The notes beneath the pieces are model-generated. The model was not told the origin of the DNA, did no database searches, and saw only the letters and a list, made by a program, of their open reading frames with translations. Shown one piece after another: positions 29,750 through 30,151 of a stretch of 64,000 nucleotides of DNA (the first letter of the stretch is position 1; the number at the start of each line of letters is the position of its first letter). Position numbers and translations under genes: made by a program. This stretch comes from Octopus vulgaris (taxonomy: Eukaryota): NCBI GenBank assembly GCA_951406725.2, contig OX597827.1, positions 22,878,001 to 22,942,000 of the forward strand, written 5' to 3'.

Positions 29750-29782
<33 letters not shown>

Positions 29783-29881
29783 TATAAAAAGGGTAGGTGG
29801 CATACGAGTGGGTAAATATTTATAAAAAAGAAGTTTGAAAACACCAATATATAAGATAAATTTTAATTTTCTTAGAAATTT

Positions 29882-29972
29882 AAAAATATGGAGCACTTCG
29901 TCATCCTTGTGCAGGGGCCATGCTAATCTCTGTATCGTTCCAATTTTAGTATATGTACTGCCGAAGCATTAC
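29882..29972 (-). pseudogene. U6: U6 snRNA-derived copy (minus arm), same ~12-nt deletion plus a 3-nt deletion at the ACAGAGA box
   Basis: Reverse complement GTAATGCTTCGGCAGTACATATACTAAAATTGGAACGATACAGAGATTAGCATGG... Confidence 0.92.
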
Positions 29973-29973
29973 A

Positions 29974-29995
29974 GTATTGCTACGGCAGTACATAC

Positions 29996-30029
<34 letters not shown>

Positions 30030-30067
30030 GGCCCCTGCACAAGGATGACGAAGTGCTCCATATTTTT
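29974..30067 (+). pseudogene. U6: U6 snRNA-derived copy (plus arm of a fold-back element), lacking about 12 nt after GGATGAC
   Basis: CTAAAATTGGAACGATACAGAGAAGATTAGCATGGCCCCTGCACAAGGATGAC is near-identical to U6; ends CCATATTTTT; no upstream promoter. Confidence 0.92.
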
Positions 30068-30151
30068 AAATTTCTAAGAAAATTAAAATTTATCTTATAT
30101 ATTTGCGTTTTCAAACTTCTTTTAAATATATATATATGTTATAATATATAT

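What the first reader, a model, noticed from the sequence alone, without database searches (positions are those of the whole stretch)
29782..30125. U6 snRNA-headed fold-back element: candidate U6-derived non-autonomous retroelement mobilised by Penelope-like machinery
Seen: two U6-derived copies are fused head-to-head at the U6 5' G (29972 minus, 29974 plus, 1-nt spacer). Both share the same departures from canonical U6 (~12-nt deletion after GGATGAC, CCTGCACAAGG, GAAGTGCTCC). Both continue ~57 nt past the T5 terminator into the same AT-rich tail. The minus arm has a further ~40-nt extension, and both ends run into (TA)n. Known: U6 has a purely upstream pol III promoter, so these copies are promoterless; PLE insertions often have an inverted partial terminal repeat, and some PLE clades prefer (AT)n. 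Inference: a start exactly at +1 suggests an RNA intermediate, and the inverted arm/arm/extension layout is the same as in neighbouring hammerhead-bearing fold-back elements. This would be a U6-variant SINE-like RNA with a PLE-recognised tail, unlike ordinary polyA U6 retrocopies or U6/L1 chimeras.
Basis: partly seen in the sequence, partly recalled or inferred. Interest (0 to 1): 0.85.

Follow-up and report, generated by a model that had tools for sequence, protein, structure and literature searches.

The report
U6 joined at Penelope ribozyme cut
This is a one-off hairpin-shaped DNA copy of the U6 splicing RNA fused to the end of a Penelope-type jumping gene at exactly the base where that element's own small ribozyme is predicted to cut, and the same joint recurs at 16 places in this genome, a likely fossil record that these weak ribozymes cut in living cells and that the cut end was probably ligated to U6.

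Summary
The layout is real, but it is not a SINE family. The deletion junction and the U6/tail junction occur only here. The tail is the 3' end of a high-copy Penelope-like element (PLE) with a C-terminal GIY-YIG domain. In U6-free copies a minimal hammerhead lies directly upstream of this tail, and U6's five Ts meet the tail exactly at its predicted cut. I found 17 U6/PLE loci: 16, in 8 families, join at the predicted cut (11 by a strict grammar, 5 partly by eye); all 17 have exactly five Ts. The exception belongs to a family whose catalytic core is altered; it has about 9 times more motif copies than family B but no junction at its cut. Best reading: ribozyme cut, RtcB-type ligation to mature U6, then two-site PLE reverse transcription into (TA)n. 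The main rival is a template jump at the cut end. Cutting and ligation are inferred, not shown. The scan noted the same thing earlier, in this genome and in another (AI notes, unchecked). Five literature searches found no paper on it.

The parts
29731..29781 (.). (TA)n-rich left flank, the likely target
   Evidence: TRF array 29731-29786
29782..29881 (-). Long arm: last 100 nt of PLE family A, from the predicted hammerhead cut to the end of the PLE 'tail' extension
   Evidence: 1595 first-look candidates, 40 scored, 91-94% identity. 36 of 65 family arms end at tail position 98-100. Parent copies read GAAACATGTA directly before this stretch.
29882..29972 (-). U6 copy from +1 to T5, with the shared 12-nt deletion and a private 3-nt deletion
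   Evidence: Rfam 76.6 bits; alignment
29973..29973 (.). Single-base spacer at the head-to-head joint
   Evidence: sequence
29974..30067 (+). U6 copy from +1 to T5, with the shared 12-nt deletion
   Evidence: Rfam 88.2 bits
30068..30125 (+). Short arm: same PLE stretch from the predicted cut, without the tail extension
   Evidence: Aligns to tail positions 1-69, the last part AT-only. 19 of 65 family arms end at position 69.
30126..30296 (.). (TA)n right flank
   Evidence: TRF, 86.5 copies

Best explanation
This is a one-off chimeric retrocopy in which full-length U6 ending in five Ts is fused to the 3' end of a Penelope-like element at the predicted cut of that element's minimal hammerhead, likely because the ribozyme cut the element's RNA, an RtcB-type ligase probably joined mature U6 to the cut end, and the element's reverse transcriptase then likely copied the hybrid twice into a (TA)n site. 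Shown: the layout, the identity of the tail, the hammerhead motif in parent copies, the junction position, the T count, the recurrence. Inferred: (1) the hammerhead, as a dimer through its palindromic stem III, cuts after GUA and leaves a 5'-OH; (2) U6 with five Us and a 2',3'-cyclic phosphate is ligated to it; (3) reverse transcription starts at two sites, giving the 58-69 nt and 100 nt arms; (4) both cDNAs ran to U6 +1 and were joined head to head.
For: Parent family A reads TTGATAA-GGTTC..GAACC-GAAA-CATG-TA then the tail. A hammerhead grammar puts the cut exactly at the U6 junction in 16 of 55 A, 8 of 19 B, 8 of 17 C, 11 of 19 D and 1 of 11 G copies, with 2 cuts elsewhere in -300..+200 over all five families; shuffled loci give 1 hit per 905 kb. 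16 of 17 U6/PLE loci join at the predicted cut: A 1, B 6, C 2, D 1, F 1, G 2, H 1, K 2. Among 220 U6 3' ends, 13 of 13 PLE loci have T5 against 53 of 191 other non-gene ends (Fisher p 1.8e-7). With the linker left free (1-8 any bases), all 18 true U6 arms among 43 hits have exactly T5 and no extra base, whereas U6/SINE junctions have 1-9 Ts and varied extra bases. Family I lacks core A6 in 16 of 17 sampled copies, has 13,566 exact motif hits against 1,556 for B, and has no U6 at its cut, where 52 would be expected at B's rate. U6-free arms seldom start within 2 nt of the cut: A 1 of 65, B 2 of 23, C 3 of 31, G 0 of 19. An RtcB gene is present. RtcB needs U6>p plus a 5'-OH and mature U6 ends in five Us (PMC6789731, passages). 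Two RT start sites give the tail (PMC11167929).
Against: No cutting or ligation was tested. A template jump onto the 3' end of U6 at the cut end gives the same junction position. One locus (L248, family I) joins 38-41 nt past its motif and also has T5, so T5 alone does not mark a ribozyme end. For G, H and K (5 loci) the cut is called mostly by eye; K fails the grammar. In D, H and K the base before the cut is T, so the junction is ambiguous by 1-2 nt. 7 of the 13 census loci (C8-C30) were first seen in the T5 class, though the other classes were then fetched too. The two arms here share a deletion and 3 substitutions that an ordinary U6 RNA would not supply. In the anole element, cutting was not needed for insertion and no reads began at the cut (PMC11167929). 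The family I contrast ignores expression, age and autonomy, and its pattern fits 13 of 17 sampled copies.
Confidence: 0.62

Rival explanations
1. The hammerhead cuts, but there is no RNA ligation: the PLE reverse transcriptase runs off the cut 5' end and jumps onto the 3' end of U6.
For: Template jumping to U6 is the classic model for L1, L2 and RTE chimeras (PMC4476161, passages). Most U6 copies here are joined to SINE starts or tails with extra bases, which looks like jumping. A few U6-free arms start at the cut (L024, L196, L199), so cut RNA can be a template.
Against: All PLE junctions have exactly T5 and no added base, unlike the SINE junctions. In fold-back loci both arms carry the junction, and either arm can reach further into U6 (long arm in L139, L147; short arm in L131, L200), which fits two cDNAs on an already joined RNA better than two separate jumps.
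Confidence: 0.25
2. No ribozyme cut: the reverse transcriptase stalls at the folded motif, or a protein nuclease cuts there, and U6 is captured at that point.
For: Metazoan minimal hammerheads cut poorly in vitro (PMC4209133). A family A monomer or dimer did not fold into a hammerhead at minimum free energy.
Against: The junction is at the scissile base in families with different stems and three different NUH triplets (GUA, GUU, GUC). Family I keeps the stems but has lost core A6 and has no junction at its cut.
Confidence: 0.07
3. A U6-variant SINE-like family with a PLE tail; this locus is one daughter of a master copy.
For: The arms share a deletion and 3 substitutions, as if copied from a variant donor. 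Family B has 6 loci with the same junction.
Against: Deletion junction: 2 hits, both here. U6 plus family A tail: 2 hits, both here. The family B loci have ordinary U6 with different 5' break points. The U6 promoter lies upstream of the gene (recalled; a TATA-like box is seen upstream of the array copy L100) and is not carried along.
Confidence: 0.03
4. A DNA-level event or artefact: a PLE inserted at the end of a U6 gene, the tail is a U6 gene flank, or the palindrome is an assembly error.
For: Elements that target small-RNA genes exist (search listings). Palindromes next to (TA)n are hard to assemble (recalled).
Against: The likely U6 gene array (L098-L104) has an unrelated 3' flank. The arms differ at 5 substitutions and one gap, so they are not a read artefact. 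The asymmetric ends match the family's two ends.
Confidence: 0.03

Closest known systems
U6/LINE-1 chimeric pseudogenes formed by RtcB ligation (Moldovan et al. 2019, PMC6789731; passages read)
   Same: Full-length U6 ending in about five Ts joined in sense to the 3' part of a retroelement; proposed chemistry U6 cyclic phosphate plus 5'-OH.
   Different: There the L1 junction is at no specific sequence and the nuclease that makes the 5'-OH is unknown; insertions have TSDs at L1 sites. Here the partner is a PLE, the junction is fixed at its own predicted ribozyme cut, and the insertion is a fold-back in (TA)n. The paper's text holds neither 'Penelope' nor 'hammerhead'.
U6 chimeras with L2, RTE, CR1 and their SINEs (Doucet et al. 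2015, PMC4476161; passages read)
   Same: U6 capture is not limited to L1. The roughly 130 or more U6/SINE copies in this genome are of this kind.
   Different: No PLE partner is mentioned ('Penelope' 0 times); explained by template switching; no fixed junction reported in the passages seen.
Minimal type I hammerheads of metazoan PLEs (Cervera and De la Pena 2014, PMC4209133; parts 1-2 of 4 read)
   Same: Short stem I, palindromic stem III, U3-A8 core covariation, place in the pLTR.
   Different: The paper has no in vivo evidence of cutting. A 2020 review calls their in vivo activity and role 'still a mystery' (PMC7761336, passage). Family G here has GCAA in place of GAAA.
PLE insertion structure: inverted 5' copy, 30-40 nt tail, two RT start sites (Craig et al. 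2021, PMC8557442, passages; Frangieh et al. 2024, PMC11167929, parts 1-2 of 4)
   Same: Long arm, short arm, 31-42 nt extension, AT-rich target, ends a short way downstream of the hammerhead cut.
   Different: Here the inverted unit carries a cellular snRNA in place of the upstream part of the element.
SINEU, snRNA-headed SINEs (Kojima 2015, PMC4494074; search listing and start of abstract only)
   Same: snRNA-derived head on a retroelement tail.
   Different: SINEU are multi-copy families; this hybrid is single-copy.

Membership tests
U6 snRNA (Rfam RF00026) | Sequence match above the gathering score | tested here: met
   88.2 and 76.6 bits against 44
Functional U6 gene | Upstream promoter and intact conserved body | tested here: not met
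   Upstream of each copy is the other copy; 12-nt deletion. The array copy L100 has TATA-like and octamer-like boxes upstream (motif names recalled).
SINE / SINEU | Multi-copy family sharing head and tail | tested here: not met
   2 hits each, both at this locus
EN+ Penelope-like element (parent of the tail) | C-terminal GIY-YIG endonuclease upstream of the pLTR | tested here: met
   PF01541 at 25.3 and 28.7 bits, cut-off 22.6, in L353 and L351, on the same strand and contiguous with the 100-nt tail
EN+ Penelope-like element (parent of the tail) | PLE-type reverse transcriptase | tested here: inconclusive
   Decayed RT-like motifs by eye in L353 (motif knowledge recalled); Pfam found nothing in 2 of 2 fragments
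EN+ Penelope-like element (parent of the tail) | Inverted 5' copy plus 30-40 nt tail | tested here: met
   Arm ends cluster at 69 (19 of 65) and 98-100 (36 of 65)
Neptune or Nematis clade | CX2-5CxxC motif between RT and EN | tested here: met
   CGKPNCGIC in L353; definition from PMC8557442
Neptune or Nematis clade | RT phylogeny | not tested
   No reference set was used
Minimal type I hammerhead | Core with paired 3-8, stems I and II, palindromic stem III, NUH | tested here: met
   Grammar hits at the junction in A, B, C, D, F and one G copy; K and most G copies not met by the grammar
Minimal type I hammerhead | Self-cleavage | not testable with these tools
   Needs a bench assay
U6/LINE chimeric pseudogene | U6 complete at its 3' end, about five Ts, sense junction | tested here: met
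U6/LINE chimeric pseudogene | LINE partner, variable junction, TSD | tested here: not met
   PLE partner, fixed junction; a TSD cannot be read in (TA)n

The most novel reading that the evidence does not exclude
Hammerhead cutting followed by RtcB ligation is a regular step in the life of Penelope-like RNAs (for example circularisation), and U6, an abundant cyclic-phosphate RNA, is its off-target partner. U6 chimeras then act as a fossil, family-by-family assay of which ribozyme variants cut in the germ line: U3-A8 and even GCAA cores score as active, the A6-lacking core as inactive.
Probability: 0.35. Interest if true: 0.82.

Novelty: new variant of a known kind. Interest (0 to 1): 0.7.

Why it matters
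Whether the minimal hammerheads of animal Penelope-like elements cut in cells is stated as open (PMC7761336), and the one in vitro system saw no RNA ends at the cut (PMC11167929). Base-exact U6 junctions in several unrelated families, with none in the family whose core is altered, are a genomic record of cutting in the germ line. They also give the RtcB model of U6 chimeras its missing piece, a named source of the 5'-OH end, and make both questions testable with short RNAs. The locus itself is most likely a dead copy with no function.

Tried and rejected
Pattern for further U6/family A junctions: 22 hits, none U6. SINE family: rejected. Tail as a U6 gene flank: rejected. RNA evidence: no RNA holder listed on record. 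Contigs of 4 runs guessed to be RNA, laid on a family G parent, showed no loose end at the cut among the 15 of 19 loose ends shown; human-like records such as U6 are filtered out, so this says nothing either way. Minimum-energy folding of the family A motif gave stem II but no hammerhead fold, as monomer or dimer. Pfam on two RT fragments: nothing. First grammar script missed family C through a regex fault, fixed. The family D count of arm starts was swamped by (TA)n hits and dropped. The automatic census flagged L120 and L144 as PLE on single flank hits (dropped) and missed L235 and L238 (added by hand); L249, L118, L159 and L310 have no assigned partner. L200 and L201 hold one chimeric locus.

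Full report
Observation. The window lies at G000:C14:22878001-22942000 in a 2.8 Gb genome of 227 contigs. I did not identify the organism; its size and repeat content recall an octopus (recalled, untested). Rfam finds two complete U6 matches head to head, 29882-29972 (-) and 29974-30067 (+), with one base between them. Both have the same 12-nt deletion and three substitutions against another U6 copy and differ from each other by five substitutions and a 3-nt gap. Each ends in five Ts and runs into the same AT-rich tail, 100 nt on the left and 58 nt on the right, then (TA)n.

The tail is a Penelope-like element. Searching the genome with the left arm gave 1595 candidates; of 40 scored places all but this locus matched only the tail. 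These copies have no U6, are cut short at varied 5' points, end in simple repeats, mostly (TA)n, and often carry an inverted short arm. Arm ends cluster at tail position 69 (19 of 65) and 98-100 (36 of 65), the two-ended tail described for PLEs (PMC8557442, passages; PMC11167929, parts 1-2 of 4). Walking upstream (30 loci fetched) reached a decayed ORF in several copies. [quoted passage not shown] Pfam did not recognise the two RT fragments. I call it an EN+ PLE of Neptune or Nematis type; no tree was built.

It is not a SINE family. The deletion junction has two exact hits in the genome, the two arms. U6 joined to this tail with any 1-8 nt linker also has two, the same arms. A tandem array that looks like real U6 genes (L098-L104) has an unrelated 3' flank and TATA-like sequence upstream.

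The junction is the predicted ribozyme cut. In U6-free copies the tail is preceded by TTGATAA-GGTTC..GAACC-GAAA-CATG-TA. This is a minimal type I hammerhead with the U3-A8 core pair and palindromic stem III described for PLEs (PMC4209133, parts 1-2 of 4). The predicted cut after GUA is the base at which U6 is attached. A grammar that knows nothing of U6 places the cut there in 16 of 55 copies and elsewhere once; shuffled loci give one hit per 905 kb.

The rule repeats. An exact 23-base pattern finds 221 U6 3' ends: 69 with exactly five Ts, 73 with six or more, the rest with fewer (one row not listed). I examined 220 distinct contexts. 131 are SINE starts or tails by regular expression, 8 belong to or resemble the gene array, 65 are 'other' (many look like decayed SINEs), and 16 ends in 13 loci are PLE tails; two of these were added by hand and two automatic false hits dropped. 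Parent searches show a hammerhead motif upstream in each family. Linker-free patterns added three more family B loci. With the focal locus the total is 17 loci, of which 16 join at the predicted cut: A 1, B 6, C 2, D 1, F 1, G 2, H 1, K 2. The grammar supports A, B, C, D and F (11 loci). G has GCAA for GAAA and passes at the junction in 1 of 11 copies; H and K are called largely by eye, and K fails the grammar. U6-free arms rarely start at the cut (6 of 138 in A, B, C, G), so this is not the usual truncation point.

Two controls. First, T count: 13 of 13 census PLE loci have five Ts against 53 of 191 other non-gene ends (p 1.8e-7), and all 18 true U6 arms among 43 linker-free hits have five Ts and no added base. 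U6/SINE junctions have 1-9 Ts and varied extra bases. Five Us with a cyclic phosphate is the mature U6 end that RtcB joins to a 5'-OH (PMC6789731, passages), and an RtcB gene is in the genome. Second, family I: its core lacks A6 in 16 of 17 sampled copies (lead from note e1-9593684). It has 13,566 exact motif hits against 1,556 for family B, yet no U6 at its cut (2 hits, neither U6), where B's rate predicts 52. Its one chimera, L248, joins 38-41 nt downstream. This contrast ignores expression and age, and L248 also has five Ts.

Mechanism. Most likely the hammerhead cuts the PLE transcript, a ligase of the RtcB kind joins mature U6 to the 5'-OH, and the PLE protein starts cDNA at its two sites on a nicked (TA)n target; here both cDNAs reached U6 +1 and were joined with one extra base (0.62). 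A one-base loop is hard to get by self-priming, and in other loci either arm can reach further into U6, which fits two cDNAs. The chief rival keeps the cut but replaces ligation by a template jump (0.25); the two together put the chance of in vivo cutting near 0.87. Unexplained: the changes shared by both arms. Arm-to-arm conversion after insertion, a lost variant donor, or copying of one arm from the other could each do it. The deletion removes a small hairpin, and L033 has an independent deletion of the same hairpin.

Known and new. U6 chimeras with L1, L2, RTE and CR1 are known (PMC4476161, passages; PMC11838501, term search only, no 'Penelope' or 'hammerhead'). Searches listed no paper on U6/PLE chimeras or ribozyme-sited junctions; the library lacks most subscription papers. 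An octopus repeat annotation lists a 'U' SINE class of 19 insertions (PMC13282606, passages); I did not open its supplements, which could include such loci. Lunse et al. 2017 was seen only as a reference. A review states that the in vivo activity of these motifs is still a mystery (PMC7761336, passage), and the anole study found no reads at the cut. Earlier notes of this scan report the same junction rule in another genome and at another place in this one; I had reached it before looking, and they are unchecked. Verdict: a new variant of a known kind; the locus is a dead copy, the pattern is of real interest.

Noticed in passing
window 25996-26180: 5S rRNA copy (Rfam 75.7 bits) that runs through a short trailer and TTTT straight into the same SINE 3' tail that many U6 copies are joined to: a 5S/SINE chimera.
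   Followed up: no
genome-wide, L033-L060, L085-L174, L235-L273, L310-L343, L374-L410: At least 131 of 220 U6 ends are joined to three SINE-type sequences, mostly at a few fixed starts (GGCG..), with variable T runs and extra bases; 68 join a short tail beginning GGCGGTG that also occurs alone. Why that start is fixed is unexplained.
   Followed up: partly
L098-L104 (G000:C1:139.42 Mb); L322: Seven U6 copies about 1.1 kb apart with shared flanks, the likely real genes; L322 is a dispersed copy with the same 3' flank. At least three U6 5' hairpin variants exist in the genome.
   Followed up: partly
L274-L285: Young PLE family G (99-100% identical tails) whose hammerhead has GCAA in place of GAAA, yet two U6 chimeras join at its predicted cut.
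   Followed up: partly
L143, L153, L320, L056, L109, L331: Other U6 hybrids seen by eye: U6 then a 5S-like sequence (L143), LINE-like 3' ends (L153, L320), tandem U6-U6 (L056, L109), and tail-to-tail U6 around (TA)n (L331).
   Followed up: no
window 2604-3100, 4619-4857, 22409-22697, 23151-23967, 29450-29600, 30968-31461, 50150-50449: Further fold-back or inverted repeats, several flanked by (TA)n; decayed hammerhead-like motifs by eye near 29525 and 50324-50377.
   Followed up: partly
window 33386-35497, 44886-45764, 46483-49167, 53192-54565 (+) and 1114-1956 (-): Long stop-free frames (281-895 codons) with protein-like composition, probably exons of host genes.
   Followed up: no
family A parents, e.g. 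L020, L353: A second, decayed hammerhead-like motif (CTGTTGAGACTAGT..GAAAC) about 90 nt upstream of the first, and a long (CTA)n-rich repeat between the ORF end and the motifs.
   Followed up: no
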